A stretch of 64,000 bases of DNA from an uncultured Chloroflexia bacterium. Lineage in GTDB: Bacteria; Chloroflexota; Anaerolineae; Promineifilales; UBA4811. The DNA lies in contig CAVOHX010000009.1 of assembly GCA_963695825.1 (NCBI GenBank), forward strand, positions 133,168 through 197,167, given 5' to 3'. Shown here piece by piece: positions 1,986 to 23,587 of this stretch. The notes beneath the pieces are model-generated. The model had not been told where the DNA came from, made no database searches, and saw only the letters and a program-made list of their open reading frames with translations. The first letter of the stretch is position 1. Each line of letters starts with the position of its first letter. The position numbers and the translations under genes are program-made.

Positions 1986-4505
1986 ATGTCAGCCTATAAA
2001 AAGTTTAGCCTGTTGTTAAGCGTCCTGATCGTCTTGTCGATGATCCTGGCGGCTTGCGGCGGCGAGGACCCGACCGCCACGCCCAAGCCGCCCGAGCCGA
2101 CGGAGGAGACGCACGAAGAGACGGCCGAAGAGACGACCGAGGAAGCCGGAGACCTGCTCGACCAGGTGATGGCGGCCGGCAAGCTGGTCGTCTCTACCGA
2201 TCCCAACTATGCTCCGCAGAGCTTTCTGAACGATGCCGGCGAGCTGGATGGGTTTGATGTAGAAGTCGCCGAAGAAGTCGCCAAGCGCCTGGGCGTGGAT
2301 ATCGAGTTCACGACCCCGGACTGGGACCTGCTAACCGGCGGCAACTGGGGCGGCCGATGGGATCTCAGCATCGGTTCCATGACCCCGACCGAGCCACGCG
2401 TCGAGGTGCTCTGGTTCACCGACGCCTATTATTTCACGCCTGCGTCCTTTGCGGTGCACAAGGACAACACCTCCATCGGCTCGGTGGGCGATCTGGCGGG
2501 CACTACCCTGGGGTTGGGCACCGCCACCACCTATGAAGCCTACCTGGATGGTTCACTGGCCATCATTGGCGGCGAGGTCCTGTACGATCCGCCTTCGGGC
2601 ATTGAGGTCAAGCCCTACTCGACCGACGCCGAGGCGATTCAGGATCTGGCCCTGGGCGACGGCGTCCGACTGGACGCGGTGATGTCGGCACAGCCGACGA
2701 TTCAGAACGCCATTGACCAAGGTATCCCGCTCAAGTATGTGGGCACGCCAGCCTTTTACGAGCCGCTGGCCTTTGCGTTGGACAAGAGCCGCGGCCCGTC
2801 GGACCACATGGTGGCCAAACTGAACGAGATCATCGCGGCGATGCACGGTGACGGCACCTTGTCGGAACTCTCGATCAAGTGGTACGGCATCGACATCACC
2901 AAACTCGTCGCTCCGGGAGAAGAAGCAGCCGTGGAAGTCTGCACCATGGTCGATGGCCTGATGGTTTGCGAGGCGCCCAATTGCGACTATGGCGGCCAGA
3001 TGCTCAAGATGGAAGCGGTGGACGAGATGACTGTCCAGTTCACCCTGTGTGCACCGGATGTGGCTTTCCCGTCCAAGGTCGCCTTTTCGGCGTTTGCCAT
3101 CCACCCCTCGGAGTATCTCGAATTCACCGGCGGAGGGGGTCAACTGGTAGACAATCCTGTCGGGACTGGCCCCTACATGCTCCAGGAGTGGCGTCGCGGC
3201 GAGCAGATCATCATGGTCAGGAACCCTGACTACTGGGGCACGCCGGCTATCGCCGATACGCTGGTCTTCCGCTGGAGCACCGAGGGCGCGCAGCGACTGG
3301 TCGAGCTCCAGTCGGGCAGCGTTGACGGCATCGACAACCCGAGCCCTGATGATTTCCCCACCATCGAGGCGGATTCGAACCTGACGCTCTACCGACGTGA
3401 GGCGCTCAACATCTTTTACCTGGGGATGAACAACTTTTTCCCGCCGTTTGACAATGAAGTGGTGCGCCAGGCCGTTGCCATGGGCATCGATCGCCAGCGT
3501 ATCGTGGATAACTTTTATCCCGAGGGCTCGGAGGTTGCGTCCCACTTTGTGCCCTGCACAATCCCCGGCGGCTGCGAGGGTGAGGAGTGGTACGAGTTTG
3601 ACGTGGACGCTGCCAAGGCGCTGCTGGCTGAAGCGGGTTTCCCCGACGGCTTTGAGACCAAGATCAGCTATCGCGACGTTTTTCGCAGTTACCTGCCGGA
3701 GCCTGGCCTGGTGGCTCAGGATCTTCAGGCGCAGTTAAAGGCCAATCTCAACATCGATGCCGAGATCGTCGTCATGGAGTCGGGCGAGTTCATCGACGCC
3801 GCCGACGCGGGCGAGTTGGAGGGCTTTCACCTGCTGGGCTGGGGCGCCGACTATCCTGACTGCACCAACTTTCTCGACTATCACTTTGGCGCGGGTGCGT
3901 CGGACCAGTTTGGTGACGGCTTTGAGGACATCTGGGATGCGTTGCGACGCGCTGGTTCGCTGTCCATCCAGGCGGAGCGTAACCCGATCTACGGCGAGGC
4001 CAACGACCTGATCCGGCAACACGTGCCCATGATCCCGGTGGCACACGGAGGCTCGGCGACGGCTTTCCGCGCCGACGTTGCTGGCGCGCATTCCAGCCCG
4101 CTGGGCAACGAGAGCTTCAAGGTGACAGACCCCGGTGGGCGTGACACCATGATCTGGATGCAGAACGCCGAGCCGATCGGCCTCTACTGCGCCGACGAGT
4201 CCGATGGCGAATCGCTGCGGGCTTGCGAGCAGATCAACGAATCGCTGCTGGCCTACATGGTGGCAGGCACCGCCGTCGAGCCATCGCTGGCCGAACGCTA
4301 CGAGGCAAATGAAGAGTTGACAGTGTGGACGTTCTACCTGCGGCCGGGCGTCAAGTTCCACGACGGCACCGATCTGGACGCGAACGACGTGATCCTGTCG
4401 TTGGTGCTTCAGTGGGATGCCGAGCACCCGCTGCATGTGGGTCGTGATGGTTCGTTCACCTACTGGCCAGGTCTCTTTGGCCCGTTCCTGAACGCGCCCG
4501 AGTAG
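1986..4505 (+). CDS. Lipoprotein with an SBP family 3 (polar amino acid-binding) domain fused to a circularly permuted SBP family 5 (Dpp/Opp-type) domain.
   Basis: Lipobox LAAC follows a hydrophobic signal peptide. The SBP3-like block runs from LVVSTDPNYAPQSF to DGFDVEVAEEVAKRLG. The SBP5 core starts at MEAVDEMTVQFTL and includes PVGTGPYMLQEWRRGEQIIMVRNPDYWG. The canonical SBP5 N-terminal block (TVWTFYLRPGVKFHDGTDLDANDV...SFTYWPGLFG) sits at the extreme C-terminus. Confidence 0.85.
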   Translation: MSAYKKFSLLLSVLIVLSMILAACGGEDPTATPKPPEPTEETHEETAEETTEEAGDLLDQVMAAGKLVVSTDPNYAPQSFLNDAGELDGFDVEVAEEVAKRLGVDIEFTTPDWDLLTGGNWGGRWDLSIGSMTPTEPRVEVLWFTDAYYFTPASFAVHKDNTSIGSVGDLAGTTLGLGTATTYEAYLDGSLAIIGGEVLYDPPSGIEVKPYSTDAEAIQDLALGDGVRLDAVMSAQPTIQNAIDQGIPLKYVGTPAFYEPLAFALDKSRGPSDHMVAKLNEIIAAMHGDGTLSELSIKWYGIDITKLVAPGEEAAVEVCTMVDGLMVCEAPNCDYGGQMLKMEAVDEMTVQFTLCAPDVAFPSKVAFSAFAIHPSEYLEFTGGGGQLVDNPVGTGPYMLQEWRRGEQIIMVRNPDYWGTPAIADTLVFRWSTEGAQRLVELQSGSVDGIDNPSPDDFPTIEADSNLTLYRREALNIFYLGMNNFFPPFDNEVVRQAVAMGIDRQRIVDNFYPEGSEVASHFVPCTIPGGCEGEEWYEFDVDAAKALLAEAGFPDGFETKISYRDVFRSYLPEPGLVAQDLQAQLKANLNIDAEIVVMESGEFIDAADAGELEGFHLLGWGADYPDCTNFLDYHFGAGASDQFGDGFEDIWDALRRAGSLSIQAERNPIYGEANDLIRQHVPMIPVAHGGSATAFRADVAGAHSSPLGNESFKVTDPGGRDTMIWMQNAEPIGLYCADESDGESLRACEQINESLLAYMVAGTAVEPSLAERYEANEELTVWTFYLRPGVKFHDGTDLDANDVILSLVLQWDAEHPLHVGRDGSFTYWPGLFGPFLNAPE

Positions 4506-4703: not shown

Positions 4704-5777
4704 ATGACGGGTTACGTGTTTCGCAGGCTACTCTTGGCCATCCCCGTGCTGTTGGGCATTGTCTTTGTCGTGTTTGCGCTGGTGCGCATGATCCCGGGCG
4801 ACCCCTGCCGGGCCGCGCTGGGCGAGCGCGCCACCGACGAGATTTGCGATGCCTATATCGCGCGGCGCGGGCTTGACCAGCCGATTCCGGTCCAATTCTT
4901 CCGCTACCTGGGCGAATTGGTTCGGTTTGACTTGGGCGATTCGTTCCGGCAGGGTCGGCCGGTCACCGAAATGCTGACCGAAAAACTCCCGGTCACGATT
5001 GAATTGAGCATGTCGGCCTTGCTCTTTGCCGTGGCCGTGGGTATGCCGCTGGGCATCGTCTCGGCTTACCGGCACAACTCGACGCTTGATGTGGTGACAA
5101 TGGTCATCGCCAACGTCGGCGTGTCGATGCCGGTCTTTTGGCTTGGGTTGATGCTCCAGTACGTTTTTGCCGTCCTGCTGCGTGACACGGCGTGGCAACT
5201 GCCTCCCTCCGGCCGGCTGGCGGCCGGGCTCACGATTGCACCGCTGTACGATACCTGGGGCTGGGAGGTGAGCGGGGTTGCCAAGAGTCTCACCGAGTTT
5301 ATTTCAAATATGCACATCGTGAACGCGTTGGTGACCGGCAATTGGAAGGTCCTCGGGGATGCGCTCAAGCATATGGTTCTGCCGGCAATTGCCTTGGGCA
5401 CGATTCCCATGTCGATCATCGCCCGCATGACCCGTTCCAGCCTGTTGGAGGTCATGGGGCTGGAGTACATCCGGACAGCCCGCGCCAAAGGGCTGCGCGA
5501 ACAGGCGGTGATTCTGCGCCATGGCCTGCGCAACGCCATGTTGCCGGTCGTCACAGTAATCGGCCTCCAGTTTGGGTTGCTCCTGGCTGGAGCGGTGCTC
5601 ACCGAGACCATCTTTGGCCTCTCGGGGATTGGTCGCACGCTGTATGATGCCATTACCGGCCGCGACTATCGCGTGGTTGAAGGCTTTACCCTGGTGATTG
5701 CGGTCATCTTTATCGGCGTCAACATGGTGGTGGACGTCTCGTACGCCTACCTGGACCCGCGGGTGCGTCTGGACTAG
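4704..5777 (+). CDS. Peptide/nickel-type ABC transporter permease (DppB/OppB family).
   Basis: N-terminal MTGYVFRRLLLAIPVLLGIVFVVF. The family-typical motif YIRTARAKGLRE and the tail VVDVSYAYLDPRVR are present. Confidence 0.9.
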   Translation: MTGYVFRRLLLAIPVLLGIVFVVFALVRMIPGDPCRAALGERATDEICDAYIARRGLDQPIPVQFFRYLGELVRFDLGDSFRQGRPVTEMLTEKLPVTIELSMSALLFAVAVGMPLGIVSAYRHNSTLDVVTMVIANVGVSMPVFWLGLMLQYVFAVLLRDTAWQLPPSGRLAAGLTIAPLYDTWGWEVSGVAKSLTEFISNMHIVNALVTGNWKVLGDALKHMVLPAIALGTIPMSIIARMTRSSLLEVMGLEYIRTARAKGLREQAVILRHGLRNAMLPVVTVIGLQFGLLLAGAVLTETIFGLSGIGRTLYDAITGRDYRVVEGFTLVIAVIFIGVNMVVDVSYAYLDPRVRLD

Positions 5778-5802
5778 CCAGAGGCGGCTACGGATAGAAG
5801 AG

Positions 5803-6801
5803 ATGCCGACTCCCGAGAACCAAGATACCCGATCTGGCGATCGACCAGTGGACCTTTTGGACCATGACCTGGCGACCATGGACGAGGTGCTGCGACATGC
5901 GCCCAGCAGCCTCTGGCGGGATGCGCTGCGGCACGTTTTTCGCAAGCGATCCGCCATTGTGGGGATGACTATCCTGGGTGTGCTGGTATTGATCGCCATC
6001 TTTCATCCGCTGCTGGCTACCCACGATCCCAGCATCCCCATGTTGGATATCCCGGAGGAGGTGGCGGCCGGGGTTCGCAAACGAACTCCGCCGTGTATCC
6101 ATCTGCTGGGCTGCCCCGAAGAGCAGCCGCAGCACATCCTGGGCCTGGATGGGAATGTGCGGGACTTTTTCAGTCGCATGATGTACGGCTCCAAGTGGTC
6201 GCTGATCATTGGCTTTACCACGGTTACCTTTGCCATCATCGTGGGTACCATCCTGGGTGCGGTGGCGGGCTATGCCGGCGGATGGGTGGACAATGTCATC
6301 ATGCGGCTGATGGATGTCCTGCTTGCGTTTCCGTCGTTGATTCTCGCCATCGCCATTGTGACTGTGCTGGGGCCCGGCCTGGTTAACGCTCTGCTGGCGA
6401 TCGGCATTGTGTCGATACCGGTCTACGCCCGGATCATGCGGGCCAGCGTGCTGTCGGTCAAGGAGACGGATTACGTCGAGGCGGACCGCGCCCTTGGGGT
6501 TGGCTCGACGCGTTTGCTGTTTCATCGAATCCTGCCCAATGCTCTGACGCCGCTGATTGTCCAGGGGACCCTGGGGATCGCAACCGCTATCCTGGACGCG
6601 GCCGCCCTATCGTTTCTGGGTCTGGGAGCGCAACCGCCGATGCCCGAGTGGGGGTCCATGCTAGGCGCTGAACGCAACCAGGTTTTCAGCGCCCCACACC
6701 TGGTTTTCTTTCCCGGCATCGCCATCATGCTGACGGTCTTGAGCTTTAACCTGCTGGGCGACGGGTTGCGCGATGCGCTGGACCCGCGTCTGAATCGGTG
6801 A
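5803..6801 (+). CDS. Peptide/nickel-type ABC transporter permease (DppC/OppC family).
   Basis: ATG at 5803 lies downstream of the dppB-like stop. Motifs DYVEADRALGVGSTRLLFHRILPN and LGDGLRDALDPR are present. Confidence 0.9.
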   Translation: MPTPENQDTRSGDRPVDLLDHDLATMDEVLRHAPSSLWRDALRHVFRKRSAIVGMTILGVLVLIAIFHPLLATHDPSIPMLDIPEEVAAGVRKRTPPCIHLLGCPEEQPQHILGLDGNVRDFFSRMMYGSKWSLIIGFTTVTFAIIVGTILGAVAGYAGGWVDNVIMRLMDVLLAFPSLILAIAIVTVLGPGLVNALLAIGIVSIPVYARIMRASVLSVKETDYVEADRALGVGSTRLLFHRILPNALTPLIVQGTLGIATAILDAAALSFLGLGAQPPMPEWGSMLGAERNQVFSAPHLVFFPGIAIMLTVLSFNLLGDGLRDALDPRLNR

Positions 6802-6812
6802 AAGGACCAGCG

Positions 6813-7846
6813 ATGGCGATGGCAGATGGCGTCCAGAACCAGGCTGCAGTAGCCGATCAGCGGCCGGCGGCCGACGACATCCTGCTCGATGTGCGTGATT
6901 TGAGGACTCACTTTCACACGCTGGATGGTGTGGTCAAGGCAGTGGATGGGGTGGATTTGGCCGTGCGACGGGGGGAGGTTGTTGGGCTGGTCGGTGAATC
7001 GGGCTGCGGCAAAAGCGTGACGTCGTTCTCAGTGCTACGCCTGATCGCTCATCCCGGCCGGATTGAATCGGGTGAGGTCTGGTTTGATGGGACTAACCTG
7101 CTTGAACTTCCCATCAAAGAGATGACCCGCATCCGCGGCCGCCGTATCTCGATGATCTTTCAGCAGCCGACCGCCTGTTTGAACCCGGTCTACAACACGG
7201 AGTACCAACTGGCTGAGGTCTATCGCATTCACCAGAACCTGAGCCGCAAAGTCGGCCGCCAGCGTGCGCTGGAACTACTGCAAAAGGTCGGCATTCCAGA
7301 TCCCAAGCGTCGCTTGAAGGCGTTTCCGCACGAGCTCTCGGGCGGAATGGCGCAGCGGGTGATGATTGCCATGGCGCTCGCCTGCAACCCGACTTGCTCA
7401 TCGCCGATGAGCCGACCACGGCTCTGGATGTGACGATTCAGGCCCAGATTCTGGACCTGATGCGTGAACTTCAGGCCGAGCTGGGCGCGGCGATTGTCCT
7501 GATCACCCACGACCTGGGTGTTGTGGCCGAGATGGCTTCGCGCATTGCCGTCATGTACGCTGGCCAGATCGTAGAAGAGACCGACATCCGCAGCCTTTAT
7601 CGGTCACCCCAGCACCCATATACGATCGGTCTCATCGGATCGATCCCGGTGCTGGGCCAGATCAAGACCGAGCTTGACGTGATCCCGGGGACGGTGCCGA
7701 ACCTGATCGAGCTGCCCCCGGGCTGTCGGTTTGCCCCTCGATGCCGGGCGCGGGTAGAGAGGCAACTCGATATCTGCCTGCACGAGATCCCGCCATTGGA
7801 TCAGACTGCACCCGGTCACCTGGTCCGTTGCTGGCTTTATTCTTAA
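6813..7846 (+). CDS. Peptide ABC transporter ATP-binding protein (DppD/OppD family), with one frame break near 7390.
   Basis: ORFs 6798-7433 and 7394-7846 join as ...[10 protein letters not shown]|[21 protein letters not shown]. Motifs: [17 protein letters not shown], and the oligopeptide C-terminal motif GCRFAPRC. Confidence 0.85.
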
Positions 7847-7851
7847 CCGCC

Positions 7852-8875
7852 ATGTCCGTCGAACTCGATTGGTTGGTCCAAGAGTCGGAAAGTACTGTGG
7901 AGAACCTGATAGAAGTCCAGGATCTGGTAAAGCATTTCCCGGTCAAGGGAGGCTTGCTTCAACGTGTTCAGGGGTGGGTCAAGGCGGTCGATGGGGTCAG
8001 CTTTGCCATCCGCAGAGGTGAGACGCTGGGCTTGGTGGGCGAGTCGGGCTGTGGCAAGACAACGGTCGGGCGTACCTTGTTGAGACTGATCGAGCCCACC
8101 GCCGGAAAGGTCTTTTTCGAAGGGCGGAATCTCACCCAGTTGACCGCAGAGGAGATCAAACCGCTGCGGCGTGAGATGCAGTTGATCTTTCAGGATCCCT
8201 TTTCGTCGCTGGACCCTCGCTCACAGATTGCCGACGTCATCGGCGAGGGGCTCTATGTCCACGGTCGAGAAGGACGGCAATGAGCGGCGAAGGCAGGTAC
8301 TGGAGATTATGCGCCGGGTGGGGCTGGCAGAGGATCATTTGCGCCGCTATCCGCACGAGTTCTCGGGCGGACAGCGACAGCGCATTGGCATCGCGCGGGC
8401 ATTGATCCTGCGCCCCAAGTTCATCGTGTGTGACGAGCCGGTCTCGGCACTGGATGTGTCAATACAGGCTCAGGTCCTCAACCTATTGCGGAAGCTCCAG
8501 CGCGATTTTGACCTGACCTACCTGTTTATCGCCCACAACATGAGCGTGGTCGAGCACATCAGCGACCGGGTTGCTGTTATGTACCTGGGCAAAATCGTCG
8601 AGATTGCCGGGCAACGCAGTCTCTACAGCAACCCACTTCACCCCTACACCCAGGCCCTGCTGTCAGCGATTCCGGTGGCTGACCCCGACCGCAAGCGACA
8701 GCGGGAAATACTCACCGGCGATGTTCCCAGCCCGCTGAACCCGCCCTCTGGCTGCCGCTTCCACCCTCGCTGTCCCATCGCCAGCACGGATTGCTCGTCG
8801 ATTCAGCCGGAGCTGCGCTCACTGGCGCCTGATCATCAGGTGGCATGTCACTATGCGGAGCAGTTCCTGGTGTAG
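7852..8875 (+). CDS. Peptide ABC transporter ATP-binding protein (DppF/OppF family), with one frame break near 8265.
   Basis: ATG at 7852 lies 6 nt after the dppD-like stop. ORFs 7741-8283 and 8228-8875 join. Motifs: [33 protein letters not shown]. Confidence 0.85.
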
Positions 8876-9041
8876 GTCGGGACACGGCCGGTTGTAGCTG
8901 TTGTCTCTGGTCGGAGGATTGCAGACAGGAGGAGGTGGCCTTGGCTGAGGCGAGCGATGTACTCGACAGCCAGCCAACCCCCAAGCTGCCGGCCGACTGA
9001 TGGCACGCGCGCGTTCAGGCGCTCATGAGGAGGAAACCAAT

Positions 9042-11186
9042 ATGGAGATGCCTGCCGCTTCACAGGAGAAATCGGACCACAAGCTGGTCAGATGGTTGTT
9101 GAATCTGGTCGCCATCACGGTGGCCCTGAGCCTGCTGTATGCTGTACTGTTTTACCTCGGCGGGCCGGTCCGCTTGGCAGTGGTCACCGAGGTGTTGGAC
9201 CTGGCGTTTAAGACTGACGGCGAGCAGCTAGCGGTTGCAGCGCAGGACGGCACGGTCTGGCTCTACGATGTGAGCCGAGACTGGGCGGCAACCGCGCTCT
9301 CTGATCACGAGGCGCCGGTCATCGACGTAGCGATATCCCCTGATGGCTCTTCCCTGGTGTCCGTCGATCAAGAGGGTGAGGTCCGAATCTGGCAGGTTCC
9401 CGGGGGCCGGGTTGAGAAAGCGTTCAGCACCGGGGGCCCAGTGAGTCAGGCAGCCGTTGCGGCCGACGGATCGGTGTTGGCGACCTTGGGCGGCGATGAT
9501 ATCATCCGCACCTGGGAATTGCCCTCCGGTGATCAGCTTCAGTCCATTGGTCCCGAGGAGGGGGTTGGCCTATCGGTCGCGGTGAGTGCAGACGGCTCGC
9601 TGGTGGCGGCCGGCGTGGACGACAAGATCGGCCTCTGGGACTCGCACACCGGGGCGTTGGTGCGCACCCTGGAGGGCTATTGGGAGGATGAAACCCAAGA
9701 GGATTGGCTCGGGCACGACGAGGAAGTCACGGCGCTCGCCTTTAGTCCGGACGGGGAGATGCTCGCCTCGGGCAGCGCGGACACGACGATCAACTTTTGG
9801 GGAGTGGACACGGGCGAGGTGATTTGGCCGTCCGAGGGACACTGGGGGACAGTGACCAAGCTGGTGTTCAACGCCGAAGGCGATCTACTTCTTTCGGGCG
9901 GCAAGGACAACAAGGTCCGGAGTTTCCGGGTAGCCGGCGGTAGAAGCACCGCGCTGTACGAGGGGCACGTGGGTACCATCAATGGCGTCGCCTTTGGACC
10001 TACGCCCGATACCATTCTCACGGCCGCCAACGATGGCTCGGTGCGTCTCTGGGAGACAGCCAACCAGAAGGTCCAACACATCGAGTGGCCTCGGTATGGC
10101 CTGCAATCGGTGTGGGGCGACCTCTTTGGCATCTGGACACTCGTCAGCGGCGTTCTCGGCGCGATATGCCTGGTTGGCCTGCGCCGACGCAAGACATGGA
10201 GCCATCTGGTAACACTGGCGCTGTTCCTGGTGGGACCCATCGTGGTGCTTGGTCTTCCTCTGCTCGAGGCGCTATCGTATCCGATATCGACTGGTATCAA
10301 ACTGCAAATTGGTTGGCCCTTGGTGTTGCTCGCTGCCTGGTATTCGGCGTTGGTGGTGTTGCTAATGCGGGACAGCGTCGTGGCCGTGTATGAGGCTCCG
10401 CGTGATGTGCCGTTGGCCGACCGCTTGGTGATCAGCCAACGCACCGCCAAATCCCGTTTTGGGATCTTTGGTTTGGGGACGTGGATGCTGGTGTTGGTGC
10501 TGCTCTATTCCGTGCTGCGACGCTTTAACCTCGACATCGCGTTCATGGGCCACTTTTTCTCCTTTATCATGCAGGGGAGCTGGATCACGCTGCGCATCTC
10601 GGCCATCTCTATCCTGCTGGCGGTGGTCCTGGCCCTGGTGGGCGCCTTGGGGCGTCTGTCCAAGAACCCGGCTGCGAACGGCTTGGCCAGCTTTTATGTG
10701 TCGCTCATTCGTGGCACACCGCTCCTGGTGCAGGTGTACATTTGGTACCTGGGTTTGCCGCGGTTGGACATTGTGCTTCCCGGAGAGCTAGCCGGCATAT
10801 TGGCGCTCGGGGTGAACTATGGCGCCTATATGTCAGAAACCTTTCGCGCGGGGATTCAGGCGATTGGCAAGGGGCAGTACGAAGCGGCGCAGGCGTTGGG
10901 GATGACGCGAGGGCAGACGTTTCGCAGGATCGTTCTACCACAGGCCTTCCGTATTGTGATTCCACCGATTGGCAACGATTTCATCGCCATGATGAAGGAC
11001 TCGTCGCTGGTGTCGGTGATGGCCATCTGGGAGCTGACGTATCGGGCGCAAAAGATCGGCCGGCAGAACTTTCGCAACATGGAGACCTTTATCATCGCCG
11101 CCGCGTTCTACTGGCTGCTGACGGTGGTATTCCAATTCCTTCAGGGCAAGCTGGAGGATTACATGGCTCGCGGCGAAAGGAGGTAA
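9042..11186 (+). CDS. Seven-bladed WD40 beta-propeller fused, through extra TM helices, to a HisM/GlnP-type polar amino acid ABC permease.
   Basis: AGGAGG lies 8 nt before the ATG at 9042. One N-terminal TM helix precedes seven WD-like repeats ending WLYDV, RIWQV, RTWEL, GLWDS, NFWGV, RSFRV and RLWE. About four TM helices follow. A complete permease domain ends the protein (GTPLLVQVYIWYLGLP, AAQALGMTRGQTFRRIVLPQA). Confidence 0.85.
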   Translation: MEMPAASQEKSDHKLVRWLLNLVAITVALSLLYAVLFYLGGPVRLAVVTEVLDLAFKTDGEQLAVAAQDGTVWLYDVSRDWAATALSDHEAPVIDVAISPDGSSLVSVDQEGEVRIWQVPGGRVEKAFSTGGPVSQAAVAADGSVLATLGGDDIIRTWELPSGDQLQSIGPEEGVGLSVAVSADGSLVAAGVDDKIGLWDSHTGALVRTLEGYWEDETQEDWLGHDEEVTALAFSPDGEMLASGSADTTINFWGVDTGEVIWPSEGHWGTVTKLVFNAEGDLLLSGGKDNKVRSFRVAGGRSTALYEGHVGTINGVAFGPTPDTILTAANDGSVRLWETANQKVQHIEWPRYGLQSVWGDLFGIWTLVSGVLGAICLVGLRRRKTWSHLVTLALFLVGPIVVLGLPLLEALSYPISTGIKLQIGWPLVLLAAWYSALVVLLMRDSVVAVYEAPRDVPLADRLVISQRTAKSRFGIFGLGTWMLVLVLLYSVLRRFNLDIAFMGHFFSFIMQGSWITLRISAISILLAVVLALVGALGRLSKNPAANGLASFYVSLIRGTPLLVQVYIWYLGLPRLDIVLPGELAGILALGVNYGAYMSETFRAGIQAIGKGQYEAAQALGMTRGQTFRRIVLPQAFRIVIPPIGNDFIAMMKDSSLVSVMAIWELTYRAQKIGRQNFRNMETFIIAAAFYWLLTVVFQFLQGKLEDYMARGERR

Positions 11187-11190
11187 TCCG

Positions 11191-11967
11191 ATGACTGAAG
11201 AGCGACAGACTCGAGAGTCCAAGACGATGATCAAGGTACGCGACCTGCACAAGTTCTTTGGACCTCTGCACGTCATCAGAGGGGTGGACCTGGAGGTGGC
11301 GCAGCGCGAGGTCGTGGTAATCATTGGGCCATCAGGCGGCGGCAAGAGCACGTTTTTGCGCTGCTTGAACTTTCTTGAAGAGCCGTCGGCCGGCACGATC
11401 GAGGTAGATGGGGTGGAGATCAGGGCGCGCGAGCCGGCCCGCGAGCAGCGCAAGCACATACGGGAGATCCGGCAAAAAGCGGGCATGGTGTTTCAGCAAT
11501 TCAACCTGTTTCCACACATGACGGCGATTGGCAACATTATCGAAGCGCCGCTCACGGTAAAGAAAATGTCCCGGCCGGAGGCCGTGGCCAAGGGTGAGGA
11601 GCTGTTGAGGTGGGTTGGCCTATCGGAGAAACGGGACGAGTTCCCCTCCCGGCTCTCGGGCGGCCAGCAGCAGCGCGTCGCGATCGCTCGGGCGTTGGCG
11701 ATGGAGCCCAAGATTATGCTATTCGACGAACCTACCTCGGCGCTCGATCCGGAGCTGATCGGCGAGGTGGTAGAGGTGATGGAGCGCATGGCGGACGAGG
11801 GCATGACCATGGTGGTGGTGACCCATGAGCTGCATTTCGCCCGTGACGTGGCTGATCGCGTGATTCTGATGGCCGACGGCGTGTGGGGAGAAATGGCTCC
11901 CCCCGACGTGTTTTTTACGAACCCCAAGGAGGAGCGTACGCGCCAGTTTCTGGCTCACATCTTGTGA
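11191..11967 (+). CDS. Polar amino acid ABC transporter ATP-binding protein (GlnQ/HisP family).
   Basis: AAGGAGG RBS. Motifs: GPSGGGKST, LSGGQQQRVAIARALAMEP, IMLFDEPTSALDPE, VVTHELHFARDVADRV. Confidence 0.9.
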   Translation: MTEERQTRESKTMIKVRDLHKFFGPLHVIRGVDLEVAQREVVVIIGPSGGGKSTFLRCLNFLEEPSAGTIEVDGVEIRAREPAREQRKHIREIRQKAGMVFQQFNLFPHMTAIGNIIEAPLTVKKMSRPEAVAKGEELLRWVGLSEKRDEFPSRLSGGQQQRVAIARALAMEPKIMLFDEPTSALDPELIGEVVEVMERMADEGMTMVVVTHELHFARDVADRVILMADGVWGEMAPPDVFFTNPKEERTRQFLAHIL

Positions 11968-12250
11968 GTTCAGGCGCCGTCGTGTAACGCGGGTATTGAG
12001 GAGAGGAACGATGTTCACTGGTATGGGGTGGCCAAATCTCGCCAGTGGCCTCTAATCCATAGCCCCAGGTGGGCAGATGCGACTGGCTCAAGCGGGCGGC
12101 AAGGGGCCGCTTTGTCTTGTGCCGGCGGCCGTGGGCGGCGTTCAACGCGGCTATCCTCCGCTCTGCCCGTTCCCCATGTGAAAACTAAAGGCAGGTTGCC
12201 GTCTCGCCTGCCGAGATGAACAGACCGTGAATATCAAGGAGAAAAGCGTC

Positions 12251-13716
12251 ATGAGACCGAAACTGAACATACTCGGCGACGAACTGGTTGAGCAGATCAT
12301 CGCTGAAGGATTCGAGTTGCTGATGGACCCGGGCGTCCGGGTCCACAATGCCGAAGCGCTCCGGTTGCTAGCAGAGGCCGGTGCCGCAAGTGCACATGGA
12401 CACGATGATCGCTCACATACCGCAGGCGTTGGTACGAAAGGCGCTAGAGACGCGCCCATCCGAGTTTTATCTCTACGATCTGGACGGCGAGCGGTGGTGC
12501 ATTACGGGGGCGACAGCGTGCAGTTTGACCCCGGCTCGGCCGCCATCACCATCCTGGACAGCGAAACCCAGGAGCAGCGCGTCCCGGTGACGGCCGACTT
12601 TGTCAAGTTTGTCAAGCTGGTGGAGATGATCCCCCAGTTGGACGCCCAGAGCACGGCGATGATCTGCGTCGACGTCCCGGAAGAGGTCGGCGACCTGTAC
12701 CGCCTCTACCTGGCGCTCAACTATATGCGCAAGCCCATCATCACCGGCGCGTTCCGCAAGGACACCTGGTGGACCATGAAGGACATGCTGGTGGCGATGG
12801 TGGGCAGCGAAGAGGCGCTGGCGGCCAAGCCAATCGCCGTGTTCGATGTCTGCCCGTCGCCGCCTTTGCTGTGGAGCGATCTGACCTGCCAGAACATGAT
12901 CGACTGCGGCGCGCTATGGCATCCCGTCGGAGCTGGTCTCGATGCCGCTCGCGGGCGCCACGGCGCCGGTCACCCTGGCGGCCGCGGTTGTCCAGCACAC
13001 GGCCGAGTGCATGAGCGGCGTGACCATCTGCCAATTGGCGCAGGAGGGTGCGCCCATCGTGTGGGGCGGCTCGCCGGCTGCCTTTGACATGCGCGAAGGC
13101 ACCACCCCGATGGGAGCGGTTGGCACCTGGATGATTGACTGCGCCTACACTCAGGTCGGCAAGGCGCTGAACATGCCGACCCACGCCTACCTGGGCATGT
13201 CGCGATGCCAAAGTCGTTGACGCCCAGTGTGGACTCGAGTCGGCCGGCGGCACGATCATGGCGGCGCTGGCGGGCGTCAACATGGTGTCCGGCGCCGGCA
13301 TGATGGACTTTGAGAGCTGCCAGAGTTTCGAAAAGCTGGTGATCGACGCCGAGATCATCGGCATGGCCAAGCGGCTCATCGCCGGTGTCGAGGCGCGCGA
13401 ACAGCCGATTGCGCTGGGTCTGATGCGCAAGCTCCAGCACCGGGCAGACTACCTGGCCCAACCGCATACCCTCAAGTGGTTCAACAAAGAGCTGTACATC
13501 CCGTCGTCGGTGATCGACCGCGCCTCCCTGGATGGCTGGAAGAAAAAGGGCGCCAAAACGACGTGGGAGCGCGCCCAAGACCGCGTGAAGCAGTTGCTGG
13601 CAGCCTATACGCCGCCCGCGGTGTCGGCCGACTTGCGCGCCGAACTGCGGAATATTGCGACCAGTGCGGCGAGCAAATTCGGCATGGACGAATTGCCGCC
13701 GCTCGCTTTTGACTAA
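12251..13716 (+). pseudogene. MttB-superfamily (trimethylamine methyltransferase-like, non-Pyl) methyltransferase, broken by at least 4 frame shifts near 12388, 12491, 12910 and 13202.
   Basis: AAGGAG precedes the ATG at 12251. Fragments in three frames join collinearly: ...AEAGA|VHMDTMIAHIPQALVRKALETRPSEFYLYDLDGER|VVHYGGDSVQFDP...NMIDC|ARYGIPSELVSMPLAGATAPVTLAAAVVQHTAE...AYLGMS|DAKVVDAQCGLESAGG...GAGMMDFES. No in-frame TAG is needed. The breaks may be sequencing indels rather than true decay. Confidence 0.75.
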
Positions 13717-13747
13717 CACCCACCAATCAAGCCTAAGGAGCGCAGAG

Positions 13748-14392: not shown

Positions 14393-14591
14393 TTAACGGC
14401 GAGAGACTGGACCCGCGACGCGGCGAGCTACGCCGTTCTCCAGCCGCGGTCCAGCCTCGTGATGGAATCGAGTGGCAGGCCCTGCGCTGTTAGGCAGGGC
14501 CTGCTGCAGATTAGGCAGCAGCGAACGAAATCGATGTGCTGAAGGCATGCTGCGCCGTGGATCAACGGACAAACAGAGAAAGGAGTACGTC

Positions 14592-16153: not shown

Positions 16154-18631
16154 ATGCTGACAAGGCGACCATTGCTGTGGCTTGCGCCGGTGGTGCTGAT
16201 ACTGCTGATCTCTGGCTGTTCCCGCGCCGACGAACCGGCCGGAACACTGGTCCCGGCCGAGGCTACACCGGAGCAAGCGAGCGAGCCTGAACCGACCCCG
16301 CTGCCCGAGATAACGATCGTCGAGCGCGAGCAGTTGGTGGTGGGCGTCGATGCGGCGTTCCCACCCTTTGTGGATCTCAATCGGGATGGCGAGTATATCG
16401 GCATCGAGGTTGATCTATTTGCCGCCATCGCTGATCTCGCCGGCCTGGACTATCAGCTTCAGAGCGCCGACTGGGACGCAGTTTTCGACGACCTGATTAG
16501 TGGGCGGTTCAACATGGTGTTTGGAGGGCTGGTGCAAGACAATGCGCCAGCCGCCCTGGTCGAGCTCACAGAGCCCTACTTTGAGTTGGGCCAGGTGGCG
16601 GTCACGCGGGGGAATAGAGAAGACATCACGGCTCTGGAAGACCTGGCGGGCGCCACCGTTGGCGTCGTTCCTCTCTCCTGGGGAGAATATGCCGTCACGG
16701 GCCAGTCGTCCTCCTTGCCAGGAGGCTACCAGGTGCCGCCAGGCAACATCCGGCATTATGACACCGCCGAGAAGCTGGTGGAAGCGCTCTTTGCTGACTA
16801 TGTGGATGTCATTGTCACCGATCACACGGTGATCGAGAGCTTTCTCGCCGTCAACCCAGACGATATGCGCGTTCTGCGGCCGCGGGGCCAGGAGGGAGAA
16901 GGGGCGGGCTCCGACGCATGGCTGGCGGCTCATCGTTTTCACATCGCGGTCCCCAAGGGGGCCGACGAGTTGCTCGCCTCACTGAACGCAGCCATTGAGC
17001 AGGCCCGGTCCGAGGGCCAGATTGCGGCGGTAATGGAGGGGTGGGGCTTTGTACCCGAGTTTGTCGAACGCCCCCGATTCGTCCAGGACGCCGGGGCATC
17101 CTCGCTGATTGCGGGCGTCGAAAAGGTGGACGATATGACGGTTCGATTCGTCCTCAACCGACCGGACCCCAACTTTGATTACAAAATGGCGGTCCCGGCG
17201 ATGGCCATCCATAGCCCGGCGAACCTAGAGCTGTACGCCGGCGGGGACCTCGGTCTGAACCCGGTTGGCACCGGTCCATATGGTCTGGCTGGATGGGAGC
17301 CAGGCCAGGCGCTCACGCTGACCGCCAGTCCCAGCTATTGGGGAGTGGCGCCGCTGATTGACACGATTCTGGTGCGGACGGTCCCGGACGCGGCCGAACG
17401 ATTTCGATTGTTAAAGGCCGGCGAGGTTCAGTTGGTGGACAGCCTGGGGCCAGAGGACTTGGCGGCGCTCGAAGAAGAGGAAGATGAAAAGATCGTCGTC
17501 TATCCCCGGGCGCCGGTCAACATCGCTTACCTGGGTATGAATCGTGATACGGCGCCGTTTGACGAGCGCCTGGTTCGGTTGGCGGTAGCCACGTGTATCG
17601 ATCAACCGGCGCTGGTAGAGACGGTGTATCCGACGGGCACGCTGGTGGCGCACCAGTTCGTGCCGCCTAACACTTTTGGCTTTTCCCCAGGATTGCTGTG
17701 GTACGATCAGGACAGTGAAGGCGCCGCGGCATTGCTCGCGGATGCCGGGTATTCTGCGGAGCTTGCACTGACCTTGAGCTTTGCCAATGTGCCCAGCGAC
17801 TACCTGCCTGAACCGAGGTTGATCGCCGAGGCGATCCGGGGCCAGCTTGGCGCCTGTGGGATCACGACCACATTGGAGAGCCTCGACGCCGACACGTATG
17901 TTGAACGCCTGGAGGCAGGCGAGCTGCCGTTGCATCTGGGTGGCTGGTCGGCCGATTATCCCGGCCCGATCAGTTTTTTGAACACCCATTTCACCGGCGT
18001 GGGGACCGGTCTGCAATTCGGCGCCCCTTTTCCGGAGGTAGTTGAGCGGCTCGAGCAGGCGGCCGAGAGTTCAGATCGTACGCTTCGCCAGGAGCTATAC
18101 AATCAGGTGAATCAGTTGCTTAAGGAAAAGGTCGTTTTCGTGCCCTTGGCGCATGGTAGCTCGGCGCTGGCTGCCCGATCCACGCTGAACGGTGTCGTCA
18201 CCAACCCTGTGCGGCGGGAATCACTGACCCGGGTGGGACCCTTTACGGACACAGCGACGATCACCACTTTTGTCTATGCCGTGCGCAGCGATCCGCTCTC
18301 CTTGGATCCGACCGACGAATGGGATGATGCAACATTCGAGATAACCAGCCAGGTTTATGACACGTTGGTCGATTTCGAGCCGGCGACGACAGTGCTCACG
18401 CAGGGGCTGGCGATCGAGTGGTCCTCCAACGAGAGCTATGATGTCTGGGAATTCACCCTGCGGCCGGGGGTGCGTTTCCAGGACGGAACGCCGCTAACTG
18501 CCGACGCCGTTATCGTGAACTTTGAACGGCTGTGGGATCCAGAACACCCGTGGCGCAACGGTCGCACAGGGGCATTTCGGTATTTTCGGGCGCTTTTTGG
18601 GGGCTTTAAGGAACCTCAAGGGCGACAGTAG
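16154..18631 (+). CDS. Second lipoprotein with an SBP family 3 domain fused to a circularly permuted SBP family 5 domain (paralog of 1986-4505).
   Basis: Lipobox ISGC. SBP3 block LVVGVDAAFPPFVDLN...GIEVDLFAAIADLAG. The SBP5 core starts at VEKVDDMTVRFVL and includes PVGTGPYGLAGWEPGQALTLTASPSYWG. The canonical SBP5 N-terminal block (FVYAVRSDPLSLDP...WEFTLRPGVRFQDGTPLTADAV...AFRYFRALFGG) sits at the C-terminus. Confidence 0.85.
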   Translation: MLTRRPLLWLAPVVLILLISGCSRADEPAGTLVPAEATPEQASEPEPTPLPEITIVEREQLVVGVDAAFPPFVDLNRDGEYIGIEVDLFAAIADLAGLDYQLQSADWDAVFDDLISGRFNMVFGGLVQDNAPAALVELTEPYFELGQVAVTRGNREDITALEDLAGATVGVVPLSWGEYAVTGQSSSLPGGYQVPPGNIRHYDTAEKLVEALFADYVDVIVTDHTVIESFLAVNPDDMRVLRPRGQEGEGAGSDAWLAAHRFHIAVPKGADELLASLNAAIEQARSEGQIAAVMEGWGFVPEFVERPRFVQDAGASSLIAGVEKVDDMTVRFVLNRPDPNFDYKMAVPAMAIHSPANLELYAGGDLGLNPVGTGPYGLAGWEPGQALTLTASPSYWGVAPLIDTILVRTVPDAAERFRLLKAGEVQLVDSLGPEDLAALEEEEDEKIVVYPRAPVNIAYLGMNRDTAPFDERLVRLAVATCIDQPALVETVYPTGTLVAHQFVPPNTFGFSPGLLWYDQDSEGAAALLADAGYSAELALTLSFANVPSDYLPEPRLIAEAIRGQLGACGITTTLESLDADTYVERLEAGELPLHLGGWSADYPGPISFLNTHFTGVGTGLQFGAPFPEVVERLEQAAESSDRTLRQELYNQVNQLLKEKVVFVPLAHGSSALAARSTLNGVVTNPVRRESLTRVGPFTDTATITTFVYAVRSDPLSLDPTDEWDDATFEITSQVYDTLVDFEPATTVLTQGLAIEWSSNESYDVWEFTLRPGVRFQDGTPLTADAVIVNFERLWDPEHPWRNGRTGAFRYFRALFGGFKEPQGRQ

Positions 18632-23555: not shown

Positions 23556-23587
23556 GATGGATCGCAATGCGCGAACGGGAAGCAGCG

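What the first reader, a model, noticed from the sequence alone, without database searches (positions are those of the whole stretch)
1986..4505. Lipoprotein combining an SBP3 domain with a circularly permuted SBP5 (Dpp/Opp-type) domain
After the lipobox and an acidic linker comes a full family-3 (amino acid-type) binding domain, then a family-5 domain.

The family-5 part begins at the strand that in E. coli DppA is ...SEVKKVDDNTVQFVL (here MEAVDEMTVQFTL). It runs to the normal C-terminal end (...IPVAHGGSATAFRADV...). It then continues into what is normally the N-terminal roughly 120 residues (…TVWTFYLRPGVKFHDGTDLDANDV…SFTYWPGLFG, compare DppA KTYTFHLRKGVKWHD…SYEYFEGMG).

The old termini are therefore joined, and new termini are opened in the loop between YEYFEGMG and LPELISEVKKVDD. 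The result is one polypeptide carrying binding modules for two different ABC importer classes, both of which are encoded next door.
Basis: partly seen in the sequence, partly recalled or inferred. Interest (0 to 1): 0.72.

Follow-up and report, generated by a model that had tools for sequence, protein, structure and literature searches.

The report
Two-module lipoprotein with circularly permuted peptide binder
This gene encodes a membrane-anchored nutrient-capture protein that joins an amino-acid-binding module to a peptide-binding module whose chain order is naturally rearranged; the rearranged module defines a large, apparently undescribed family in Chloroflexota, and each fused module has its matching transporter encoded next door.

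Summary
ORF 1986-4505 (839 aa) reads: lipoprotein signal, acidic linker, SBP3 domain, then an SBP5 (DppA-like) domain in swapped order. Residues 338-715 match DppA 126-502 and residues 720-839 match DppA 1-125, with the old termini joined by about 4 residues. Moving the tail to the front in silico turns a two-piece swapped match into one colinear match to DppA/HbpA. AlphaFold models the domain as one compact fold (pLDDT 96, pTM 0.91).

It is not an assembly artefact. The same order occurs in at least 122 protein clusters and in all 80 best loci from species-representative genomes, all Chloroflexota, including cultured Bellilinea caldifistulae. The permutation is a family trait independent of the SBP3 fusion: most members are standalone, and others are fused behind SBP1+SBP3, type-I SBPs, Ser/Thr kinases, TIR or caspase domains. 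A canonical-order relative, a tandem SBP5-SBP5 fusion and a second break-point variant point to permutation by duplication.

Domain content tracks neighbouring permeases: DppBC follows 67/71 genes, and a polar-amino-acid permease occurs in 8/9 loci with SBP3 against 0/54 without. DppA's dipeptide-clamp residues are conserved. The best reading is one tethered protein feeding two ABC importers. I rate it a new variant of a known kind.

The parts
1986..4505 (+). Whole ORF, 839 aa plus stop: lipoprotein with an SBP3 module and a circularly permuted SBP5 module
   Evidence: It is colinear with 58 full-length homologues at 51-81% identity.
1986..2057 (+). Signal peptide with lipobox (ILAAC, Cys24)
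   Evidence: Sequence read directly. Cys24 is conserved in at least 90% of alignment A1. Lipidation itself is inferred.
2058..2150 (+). Acidic Glu/Pro/Thr-rich flexible tether, residues 25-55
   Evidence: Sequence. pLDDT is below 50 in the full-length model.
2151..2906 (+). SBP family 3 (polar amino acid type) binding domain, residues 56-307
   Evidence: PF00497 E 4e-30. Foldseek TM 0.86-0.89 to Lys/Arg/Orn and Arg binders. The best PDB sequence hit is the GlnPQ SBD1-SBD2 tandem, 6h30. T133, R138, T181/T182 and D230 are invariant or nearly invariant.
2907..2996 (+). Short interdomain linker plus a family-specific beta-hairpin and CDYGG segment that opens the permuted domain, residues 308-337
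   Evidence: Strands at 319-322 and 325-329. pLDDT is 87-97 in the domain-only model. In P0130 this segment follows directly after the tail's ...FLNAE. C333 is invariant.
2997..4130 (+). Permuted SBP5 'core', residues 338-715, equivalent to mature E. coli DppA ~126-502. It carries the ligand clamp R567 and D622.
   Evidence: PF00496 profile positions 64-365. PDB alignments. Foldseek rmsd 2.3-2.8 A over ~385 columns. Clamp residues conserved.
4131..4142 (+). Junction of the ancestral C- and N-termini, residues 716-719 (PGGR)
   Evidence: Alignments. The junction-spanning query matches at least 122 cluster representatives, nearly all as a single stretch.
4143..4502 (+). Permuted SBP5 'N-block', residues 720-839, equivalent to mature DppA ~1-125, here at the C-terminus
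   Evidence: PF00496 profile positions 2-49, E 3.8e-14. Aligns to HbpA 17-124 and DppA 59-146 in precursor numbering. pLDDT is 92-99 except for the last few residues. Many invariant residues.
4704..5777 (+). DppB-type permease with the scoop-loop residues E41-R42
   Evidence: PF19300 + PF00528. E41 and R42 counted directly. Their role in E. coli is described in PMC12136057.
5803..6801 (+). DppC-type permease (mechanical ORF starts at 5698; the likely start is Met36 at 5803)
   Evidence: PF12911 + PF00528.
6798..7846 (+). DppD-type ATPase, broken by a 1-base gap near 7385
   Evidence: ABC_tran in ORF 6798-7433 and oligo_HPY in ORF 7394-7846. Frame switch at ...AACCCGACTTGCTC....
7852..8875 (+). 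DppF-type ATPase, broken by a frameshift near 8230-8280
   Evidence: ABC_tran split across ORFs 7741-8283 and 8228-8875, plus oligo_HPY.
9000..11186 (+). Polar-amino-acid (PAAT-type) ABC permease with a WD40 beta-propeller inserted between TM1 and TM2
   Evidence: WD40 families at residues ~60-360 and BPD_transp_1 at 543-719. TM candidates at 33-51 and 375-393 onwards. The same fusion occurs in L002 and L009.
11191..11967 (+). GlnQ-like ABC ATPase of the polar-amino-acid importer
   Evidence: PF00005 E 5e-35.
16154..18631 (+). Second SBP3 + permuted SBP5 paralogue (825 aa, 30% identical), with no adjacent permease. It has Ser in place of the carboxylate-clamp Arg.

Best explanation
The gene encodes a lipid-anchored, two-module substrate-binding protein on the outer face of the cytoplasmic membrane.

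Module 1 is a family-3 amino-acid binder. Module 2 is a DppA-like family-5 binder whose chain is circularly permuted. It starts in the loop equivalent to DppA residue ~125, runs to the ancestral C-terminus, crosses a ~4-residue join into the ancestral N-terminus, and ends at ~residue 125. The break lies in the extra domain of cluster-C SBPs, away from the hinge and the ligand clamp. The fold and the Venus-flytrap mechanism are therefore predicted to be intact.

Each module is inferred to capture its own ligand and deliver it to its own importer encoded downstream:
- Module 2 binds a dipeptide-like molecule with a free alpha-amino and carboxylate group and delivers it to DppBCDF.
- Module 1 binds an amino acid and delivers it to the WD40-fused polar-amino-acid permease plus its ATPase, which has no SBP gene of its own.

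The permutation is an inherited family trait. It most likely arose by tandem fusion of two SBP5 units followed by loss of both ends, in a lineage that habitually strings binding domains together.

Shown here: the domain order, the completeness of the fold, conservation across the family, and the gene-context correlation. Inferred: lipidation, ligand classes, delivery to two transporters, and the evolutionary route.
For: Permutation:
- The Pfam hit is split in swapped order.
- PDB alignments are swapped.
- The de-permuted sequence is colinear with HbpA 18-507 and DppA 33-502 in one stretch, and with the canonical relative P0266 in one HSP.

Intact fold:
- The domain-only AlphaFold model has pLDDT 96.1 and pTM 0.91, with no weak segment.
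- Foldseek gives rmsd 2.3-2.8 A over ~385 of 507 DppA residues and TM ~0.69. That is close to the most a sequential aligner can give when a quarter of the target sits elsewhere in the chain.
- In P0130/P0272 the tail's end runs straight into the hairpin that opens the window's domain.

Family trait:
- All SBP5-containing hits among the 120 best homologues have core-then-tail order.
- At least 122 cluster representatives match the junction query at E<=1e-30, and nearly all of the 150 best hits listed match it as one stretch.
- 80 of the 80 best GTDB loci are colinear, all from Chloroflexota.

Function:
- R567 and D622 align with DppA R355 and D408. Those residues salt-bridge the dipeptide's carboxyl and amino groups, and the double mutant loses binding (PMC12136057; PMC3295651).
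- R567 and D622 are conserved in 74/75 and 75/75 SBP3-fused members.
- The window's DppB keeps the scoop residues E41 and R42 that pair with them.
- DppB follows the permuted SBP5 gene in 67/71 loci.
- A PAAT permease is present in 8/9 loci with an SBP3 module and in 0/54 without, p=2.3e-9.
- CUT1-like permease pairs occur only beside SBP1-containing triple fusions, 2/2 against 0/60.
- L012 and L014 carry the same parts unfused.

Origin:
- The tandem canonical SBP5-SBP5 protein P0187 aligns to the native permuted domain in one HSP across its inter-unit junction, which has the same linker length.
Against: - No binding or transport data exist for any member.
- The DppD and DppF genes of this window are frameshifted. 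This is probably sequencing error, but pseudogenisation is not excluded.
- One SBP3-fused locus (L013) and the window's own paralogue (16154-18631) have no adjacent permeases, so not every copy is tied to a neighbouring transporter.
- The PBP6-fused member in L011 has no Liv-type permease nearby.
- In the unfused loci the gene order is cpSBP5 then SBP3, the opposite of the domain order in the fusion, so the fusion is not a simple read-through.
- Three-dimensional superposition of the tail onto DppA's N-block could not be computed, because no model coordinates were available.
- P0187's two units are close paralogues of each other. It illustrates the route but is not the ancestor.
Confidence: 0.72

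Rival explanations
1. The ORF is an assembly or annotation artefact: two SBP5 genes, or an SBP3 gene and SBP5 genes, merged by mis-assembly or indel errors in a low-quality long-read assembly.
For: The window carries indel errors. LivF, DppD and DppF are each broken at G/C runs.
Against: The identical block order is found in 58 full-length homologues from NCBI, ENA, JGI and Logan assemblies. It is also found in 80 species-representative genomes, including an isolate genome, and in at least 122 cluster representatives. The ORF has no internal frame break and is colinear with all of them.
Confidence: 0.01
2. The SBP5 part is N-terminally truncated, and the C-terminal 120 residues are a vestigial fragment of a second SBP5 copy that does not complete the fold. 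The module would then be non-functional or work differently.
For: Permutation by duplication passes through such states. Foldseek aligns only ~75% of DppA.
Against: The tail is among the best-conserved parts of the family, with about 20 invariant positions. It covers the whole missing block with no overlap or gap. It is modelled at pLDDT 92-99 inside one compact fold with pTM 0.91. In P0130 it is joined to the core in the canonical way.
Confidence: 0.03
3. Only one module feeds a transporter. The other acts as a tether, a co-receptor, a local ligand sink or a sensor, or both modules serve the same importer complex.
For: - The permuted module is used as a sensor domain in kinases and in TIR and caspase proteins.
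- Some fused copies have no adjacent permease: L013 and the window paralogue.
- In L006-L008 the DppBC and PAAT permease genes share an operon with a single adjacent ATPase gene.
Against: The PAAT permease and ATPase next door have no other SBP gene. Their presence tracks SBP3 strictly, 8/9 against 0/54, and DppBC tracks the permuted SBP5, 67/71. Both modules keep canonical ligand-binding residues.
Confidence: 0.2
4. The permutation arose independently several times, or by a route other than tandem duplication such as fission and re-fusion of gene fragments. In that case it is not a single-origin family trait.
For: A second break point exists in P0130/P0272. The tandem P0187 is a recent duplication, not the ancestor.
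Against: All members share the same short old-termini junction and the same hairpin-CDYGG insert, P0130 included. The junction query matches them as one stretch down to ~35% identity. No phylogeny was built here.
Confidence: 0.1

Closest known systems
E. coli / Yersinia DppA and Haemophilus GbpA/HbpA (cluster C, SBP family 5; PDB 1DPP, 5F1Q, 3M8U, 3TPA)
   Same: ~29-31% identity. Every fold element is present. rmsd is 2.3-2.8 A over ~385 residues. The dipeptide clamp Arg355/Asp408 is conserved as R567/D622. The gene is followed by DppBC(DF) genes, and DppB keeps scoop residues E41/R42.
   Different: The chain order is circularly permuted, with new termini at DppA ~125 and the old termini fused. 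There is a family-specific hairpin-CDYGG insert at the new N-terminus. The protein is lipid-anchored and fused behind another SBP. No PDB chain shares this connectivity.
Treponema pallidum Tp0684 (MglB-2), the founding 'Cluster Bc / Type Ic' circularly permuted SBP (PMC4990184)
   Same: It is a natural circular permutation of an ABC-transporter binding protein. It is a tethered lipoprotein and forms a family of homologues with the same topology.
   Different: It has a different fold class: cluster B, a type-I sugar binder. Its permutation adds a fourth hinge crossing, and the permuted part is barely recognisable by sequence. Here the break is inside one lobe (inferred from published DppA domain boundaries recalled from memory, not checked here), both pieces are clearly homologous to DppA (E 1e-10 to 1e-50), and plausible intermediates survive.
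Lactococcus lactis GlnPQ tandem substrate-binding domains SBD1-SBD2 (PDB 6H30)
   Same: It is the best PDB sequence match to the SBP3 module. It shows the same principle of several tethered binding domains in series near a transporter.
   Different: In GlnPQ both domains are family 3. They are fused to the permease itself and serve one transporter. Here the modules belong to different SBP classes, hang from a lipid anchor, and correlate with two or three different importers.
SBP-type extracellular domains of signalling proteins, such as the Ser/Thr kinase StpK7 and SBP-stimulated receptors (reviewed in PMC8050422)
   Same: Relatives of the permuted module sit outside a single TM helix on kinases and on TIR and caspase-FHA proteins. 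NCBIfam's StpK7 model matches part of the SBP3 module.
   Different: The window protein has no TM helix or signalling domain, and it sits in a transporter operon. The review does not mention a permuted family-5 domain.

Membership tests
SBP family 5 / cluster C (Pfam PF00496, DppA/OppA/NikA type) | Significant profile match above the curated threshold | tested here: met
   272 bits against a cut-off of 32.4. The DppA NCBIfam model gives E 2e-59 but falls far below its equivalog cut-off of 1005 bits, so this is not a DppA orthologue.
SBP family 5 / cluster C (Pfam PF00496, DppA/OppA/NikA type) | Complete set of fold elements (both lobes plus the extra domain) | tested here: met
   The de-permuted sequence aligns 15-506 to HbpA 18-507 in one stretch. 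The compact model has pTM 0.91.
SBP family 5 / cluster C (Pfam PF00496, DppA/OppA/NikA type) | Canonical N-to-C order of those elements | tested here: not met
   Profile positions 64-365 precede positions 2-49. PDB matches are swapped.
SBP family 5 / cluster C (Pfam PF00496, DppA/OppA/NikA type) | Genetic association with DppB/DppC-type permeases | tested here: met
   Present in the window at 4704-6801, and in 67/71 related loci.
DppA-type dipeptide binders | Arg355 and Asp408 (mature numbering) clamping the ligand's carboxylate and ammonium groups | tested here: met
   R567 and D622 align to them. They are invariant in A1 and conserved in 74/75 and 75/75 fused members. Their role comes from PMC12136057 and PMC3295651.
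DppA-type dipeptide binders | Demonstrated dipeptide binding | not testable with these tools
   Needs ITC or DSF on purified protein.
SBP family 3 / polar amino acid binders (PF00497) | Profile match, the fold, and the conserved Arg and Asp for the alpha-carboxylate and alpha-amino groups | tested here: met
   104.6 bits against a cut-off of 26.4. TM 0.86-0.89 to 3VV5, 6SVF and 5T0W. R138 aligns with the Arg of the MTIT-E-R motif in GlnPQ SBD1 and AncQR. R138 and D230 are conserved. The ligand roles of these residues are taken from general knowledge of the family.
SBP family 3 / polar amino acid binders (PF00497) | Association with a PAAT-type permease and ATPase | tested here: met
   Present in the window at 9000-11967. 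Co-occurrence is 8/9 against 0/54.
Bacterial lipoproteins | Signal peptide ending in a lipobox [LVI][ASTVI][GAS]C | tested here: met
   ...SMILAAC24. Cys24 is nearly invariant. Actual acylation is not testable here.
Circular permutants (general definition) | Same fold, ancestral termini covalently joined, new termini opened elsewhere, no net loss or duplication | tested here: met
   Met at the sequence level and supported by model confidence.
Circular permutants (general definition) | Permutation-aware 3-D superposition (CE-CP or TM-align -cp) covering ~100% of the canonical structure | not testable with these tools
   Model coordinates are not exposed. Foldseek is sequential and stops at ~385 of 507 columns.
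GlnPQ-type tethered tandem SBDs | Binding domains fused to the permease polypeptide and all of one SBP family | tested here: not met
   The ORF has no BPD_transp domain. The modules belong to PF00497 and PF00496. The tether is a lipobox.
Cluster Bc (TpMglB-2-like permuted SBPs) | Cluster B / type-I fold with the permuted N-lobe | tested here: not met
   The fold matches are all cluster C. Only the principle is shared.

The most novel reading that the evidence does not exclude
Chloroflexota build 'beads-on-a-string' receptor arrays. A single lipid-anchored polypeptide carries two or three different binding modules (SBP1, SBP3, type-I, permuted SBP5). It physically gathers the matching ABC importers into one uptake supercomplex, with the extracytoplasmic WD40 propeller on the amino-acid permease acting as the docking scaffold. 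On this reading the permuted topology was retained because it places the attachment point on the face of the domain away from the permease-docking surface. That would also explain why the same module is reused as the C-terminal sensor of single-pass kinases and of TIR and caspase proteins.
Probability: 0.2. Interest if true: 0.8.

Novelty: new variant of a known kind. Interest (0 to 1): 0.6.

Why it matters
Binding proteins of ABC importers are a textbook fold, and their classification (clusters A-G) assumes a fixed connectivity. The only natural circular permutant I found in the searched literature is a cluster-B sugar binder from Treponema.

Here a cluster-C (peptide-type) permutant turns out to be a phylum-wide family, not a curiosity. 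Living relatives represent the steps of the 'permutation by duplication' route: canonical order, a tandem fusion, the permutant, and a second permutant. That makes it a clean natural case for studying how protein topology evolves.

The strict match between fused modules and neighbouring permeases suggests that one tethered protein can serve several importers. This is a different solution from the GlnPQ-type domains fused to the permease.

Practical consequences:
- Standard annotation sees only 'SBP_bac_5' and misses the rearrangement. Domain boundaries and homology models for these proteins will therefore be wrong.
- A naturally tolerated break point in the DppA fold is useful for biosensor design.
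- Reuse of the module on kinases and on TIR and caspase proteins points to peptide-like signals sensed by filamentous Chloroflexota.

Tried and rejected
- **Mis-assembly or chimera.** Rejected because of the many independent assemblies with the same order.
- **Vestigial tail.** Rejected on conservation and model confidence.
- **Source contig of the identical protein P0001.** It is not indexed, so the window's own organism name was not obtained. The closest named relatives are Anaerolineae MAGs.
- **First genome scan with the 30-sequence alignment A2.** It failed for lack of a conserved stretch. It was repeated with the closer set A3.
- **Literature searches for a prior description.** I tried circular permutation + substrate-binding protein; circularly permuted + OppA; SBP_bac_5 + permut; fused/tandem + Chloroflexi; Anaerolineae + fusion; and SBP_bac_3 + SBP_bac_5. 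They returned only the Treponema MglB-2 case and general reviews. The library lacks most subscription-journal papers, so absence is not proof.
- **Fusion by stop-codon loss between adjacent genes.** The unfused loci L012 and L014 have the opposite order, cpSBP5 then SBP3, so that simple route is unlikely.
- **The restricted co-occurrence test.** Using only GTDB loci with at least 6 kb downstream left too few SBP3 loci (2/1 against 0/51, p=0.002). It was redone with all independent loci.
Full report
**1. What is in the sequence**

The ORF 1986..4505 (+) is real and encodes 839 aa. It opens with MSAYKKFSLLLSVLIVLSMILAAC, a signal peptide ending in a lipobox with Cys24. A Glu/Pro/Thr-rich stretch follows, residues 25-55.

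Pfam finds SBP_bac_3 at residues 67-301 (E 4e-30). It finds SBP_bac_5 in two stretches. Scanning the pieces separately shows the following:
- Residues 338-638 match profile positions 64-365 of 368.
- The C-terminal tail, residues ~764-811, matches profile positions 2-49 (E 3.8e-14).

Against PDB sequences the SBP5 part gives two stretches in swapped order. Query 341-712 aligns to HbpA/DppA ~126-507, and query ~729-830 aligns to ~17-146.

**2. It is a complete circular permutation**

I moved residues 716-839 in front of residues 330-715 and searched again. The match collapsed to a single colinear stretch: 15-506 to HbpA 18-507, and 36-507 to E. coli DppA 33-502.

The same holds for a canonical-order relative from the metagenome library, P0266. 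The de-permuted sequence gives one HSP (7-509 to 39-539, 33% identity), while the native order gives two swapped HSPs.

Nothing is missing or duplicated. The ancestral termini are joined by about four residues (PGGR, 716-719). The new termini lie in the loop equivalent to DppA ~120-126.

**3. Structure models**

| Model | Residues | Mean pLDDT | pTM |
|---|---|---|---|
| Full length | 1-839 | 85.6 | 0.64 |
| Permuted domain alone | 316-839 | 96.1 | 0.91 |

The domain-only model has no weak segment across the junction or the tail.

Foldseek finds DppA, GbpA and HbpA as best matches, with rmsd 2.3-2.8 A over ~385 of 507 residues and TM ~0.69. A sequential aligner should behave this way when a quarter of the target sits elsewhere in the chain. 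The model fits closed, liganded DppA better than the open form. No PDB chain aligns over the full length at low rmsd, so no solved structure has this connectivity.

I could not run a permutation-aware superposition, because coordinates are not exposed.

**4. It is not an artefact, and it is not peculiar to this protein**

The window does contain indel errors. LivF, DppD and DppF are each broken at G/C runs. Even so, the 839-aa ORF is colinear with 58 full-length homologues of 51-81% identity from independent assemblies.

Mapping the three blocks (SBP3, core, tail) onto the 120 best homologues shows that every SBP5-containing protein has the core before the tail.

A 200-residue query spanning the fused old termini can match continuously only in permuted proteins. 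It finds 122 cluster representatives at E<=1e-30. Nearly all of the 150 best hits listed match as one stretch at the protein's C-terminal end, down to ~35% identity.

A scan of one genome per species returned at least 538 relatives. The 80 best are all colinear over residues 1-510. All carry Chloroflexota-type names: Anaerolineales, Caldilineales, Ardenticatenales and Chloroflexales. They include the cultured Bellilinea caldifistulae GOMI-1. Three bins are labelled Acidimicrobiia.

Among those 80 loci the architectures are:
- 73 standalone
- 4 SBP3-fused
- 2 fused to a type-I (Peripla_BP_6) SBP
- 1 SBP1+SBP3 triple fusion

**5. A reusable module**

In the representative library the permuted domain is also the C-terminal part of Ser/Thr kinases, TIR proteins, a caspase-FHA protein and a zinc-ribbon protein. 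Each has exactly one predicted TM helix before the domain. These are single-pass receptors with the module outside the cell.

In every architecture seen, the permuted module comes after its partner domains and is the last binding or signalling domain. A few members carry a further C-terminal extension, for example P0161 and P0166.

**6. Traces of the evolutionary route**

- **P0266** keeps the canonical order.
- **P0187 (1202 aa)** is a tandem of two canonical SBP5 units. The native permuted domain aligns to it in one HSP running from unit 1's core into unit 2's N-block (185-668). The inter-unit linker has the same length as the family's junction. Its two units are recent paralogues of each other, so it illustrates the route and is not the ancestor.
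- **P0130/P0272 (575 aa)** has a genuine lipoprotein signal and was seen on several contigs. It keeps the same fused junction but opens the ring elsewhere, before ...KITLSYR. In it the tail's ...FLNAE runs directly into the hairpin-CDYGG segment that forms the N-terminus of the window's domain. This shows independently that the two ends of the window's domain are neighbours in an uninterrupted chain.

Together these fit the established duplication-then-truncation model of circular permutation. The lineage also makes SBP3-SBP3 tandems and an SBP3-PBP6-SBP3 triple fusion.

**7. How it probably works**

E. coli DppA residues R383 and D436 (mature R355 and D408) salt-bridge the dipeptide's carboxylate and ammonium groups. 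The double mutant loses binding. The same residues pair with E41 and R42 of the DppB scoop loop (PMC12136057; D408 also in PMC3295651).

In the window protein R567 and D622 align with them. They are invariant among the full-length homologues and conserved in 74/75 and 75/75 SBP3-fused members. The downstream DppB has E41 and R42. In standalone members these positions vary more, consistent with diversified ligands.

The SBP3 module keeps the Arg of the MT-T-E-R motif and a conserved Asp. It matches Lys/Arg/Orn-type binders at TM 0.86-0.89.

**8. Gene context**

The gene order in the window is:
1. Liv ATPases
2. the fusion SBP
3. DppB, DppC, DppD, DppF
4. a WD40-fused polar-amino-acid permease
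5. its ATPase

No separate SBP3 gene accompanies that permease.

Across related loci:

| Test | Result |
|---|---|
| DppB follows the permuted SBP5 gene | 67/71 loci |
| PAAT permease present, SBP3 module in locus | 8/9 |
| PAAT permease present, no SBP3 module | 0/54 (Fisher p=2.3e-9) |
| CUT1-like permease pair beside SBP1-containing triple fusion | 2/2 |
| CUT1-like permease pair beside other architectures | 0/60 (p=5e-4) |

Two loci (L012, L014) have the same parts as separate genes.

I therefore read the protein as one tethered polypeptide that feeds two importers. I put about 0.7 confidence on the overall explanation. The dual-delivery step is inferred, not shown.

Exceptions exist. L013 and the window's own 30%-identical paralogue at 16154-18631 have no adjacent permease. 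That paralogue has Ser at the Arg clamp position.

**9. Comparison with what is known**

- **DppA/GbpA/HbpA.** The module works like these proteins and belongs to SBP family 5 by every test except chain order.
- **T. pallidum MglB-2.** The only natural permuted SBP I found described is this cluster-B protein, for which the authors coined 'Cluster Bc' (PMC4990184). By analogy the present family would be a 'Cluster C, permuted' subclass. Two differences stand out. The break here is inside one lobe and so adds no hinge crossing (inferred from published DppA domain boundaries, which I recalled from memory and did not check). Both pieces also remain clearly alignable.
- **GlnPQ.** The tethered multi-domain principle resembles GlnPQ's tandem SBDs, which are the best PDB sequence match to the SBP3 module. 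Those are homotypic, fused to the permease, and serve one transporter.
- **Profile libraries.** In the Pfam and NCBIfam scans the only matches to this domain were canonical-order SBP5 models, split into two stretches.
- **Literature.** The searches found no description of it. The library omits most subscription-journal papers.

**10. Verdict**

The observation and interpretation are confirmed and extended. This is a new variant of a known kind, not a new kind of system. It is of interest mainly for protein-topology evolution, for SBP classification and annotation, and for the idea of multi-specific tethered receptor arrays. Interest: 0.6.

Noticed in passing
window ~1370-1385 (LivF), ~7385 (DppD), ~8230-8280 (DppF): Three ABC ATPase genes within 9 kb are each split by frameshifts at G/C homopolymer runs. 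This looks like residual indel error from a long-read assembly, but real pseudogenisation is not excluded. A split ATPase is also called in L002 (20410-21163).
   Followed up: partly
window 9000-11186 (+); also L002 18165-20447 and L009 13860-16061: A ~300-residue WD40 beta-propeller sits between the first and second TM helices of a polar-amino-acid ABC permease, so it is probably extracytoplasmic. The fusion occurs only in the closest relatives. More distant loci have a plain permease. Its role is unknown; it could be a docking platform.
   Followed up: partly
window 16154-18631 (+), with 12227-16055 upstream: A second SBP3 + permuted SBP5 paralogue, 825 aa and only 30% identical, has Ser in place of the carboxylate-clamp Arg and no adjacent permease. 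It sits directly after MttB-family methyltransferase genes (one looks truncated, 12227-13087) and a corrinoid B12-binding protein (13655-14392). This hints at a methylated-amine-type ligand.
   Followed up: partly
window 43581-46739 (-): A 1052-aa ORF combines serine hydroxymethyltransferase (SHMT) with a GcvT aminomethyltransferase domain in one polypeptide.
   Followed up: no
window 22350-24506 (-): A 718-aa protein has two trypsin-like protease domains, each followed by a PDZ domain (a tandem HtrA-like arrangement).
   Followed up: no
P0144, P0139, P0159, P0170, P0193, P0236 (kinases); P0138, P0173 (TIR); P0140 (caspase-FHA); P0177 (zinc ribbon): The permuted SBP5 domain serves as the extracellular C-terminal domain of single-pass signalling proteins, with one TM helix before it in every case.
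   Followed up: partly
P0130 / P0272 (575 aa): A second circular permutation exists within the family. It has the same fused old termini, but the chain opens before ...KITLSYR (about window residue 555). It has its own lipoprotein signal and was seen on several contigs.
   Followed up: partly
P0187 (1202 aa): Two canonical-order SBP5 units are fused head to tail, with a linker the same length as the permuted family's junction, followed by a ~160-residue C-terminal extension.
   Followed up: partly
L003, L006-L008 and 31 of 50 GTDB loci with at least 6 kb downstream: DppB and DppC follow the permuted SBP5 gene without any DppD/DppF-type ATPase genes nearby. In L006-L008, DppBC is followed directly by the amino-acid permease and a single ATPase. 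The Dpp-type permeases may use ATPases encoded elsewhere, or a shared one.
   Followed up: no
L005/L011 13918-16953; L057 4050-10696: L005/L011 has a 986-aa SBP3 + Peripla_BP_6 + SBP3 triple fusion next to a PBP6 + permuted SBP5 fusion. L057 has an SBP3 + permuted SBP5 gene lying between DppB and DppC, after a standalone permuted SBP5 gene.
   Followed up: no
P0029, P0030, P0039, P0042 and others (~570 aa): Tandem SBP3-SBP3 lipoproteins in which each half is ~66-72% identical to the window's SBP3 module. The amino-acid module is therefore also duplicated homotypically in this lineage.
   Followed up: no
L018, L042, L081: Three MAGs labelled Acidimicrobiia carry permuted SBP5 genes 65-70% identical to the window's. 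This could be mis-binning or lateral transfer out of Chloroflexota.
   Followed up: no
L045, L059, L064, L066, L069, L075, L088: The whole SBP-DppB-DppC module is duplicated in tandem. The second SBP5 matches only the core query, and in L069 there is a clearly canonical-order SBP5 gene. Permuted and canonical paralogues therefore sit side by side.
   Followed up: no
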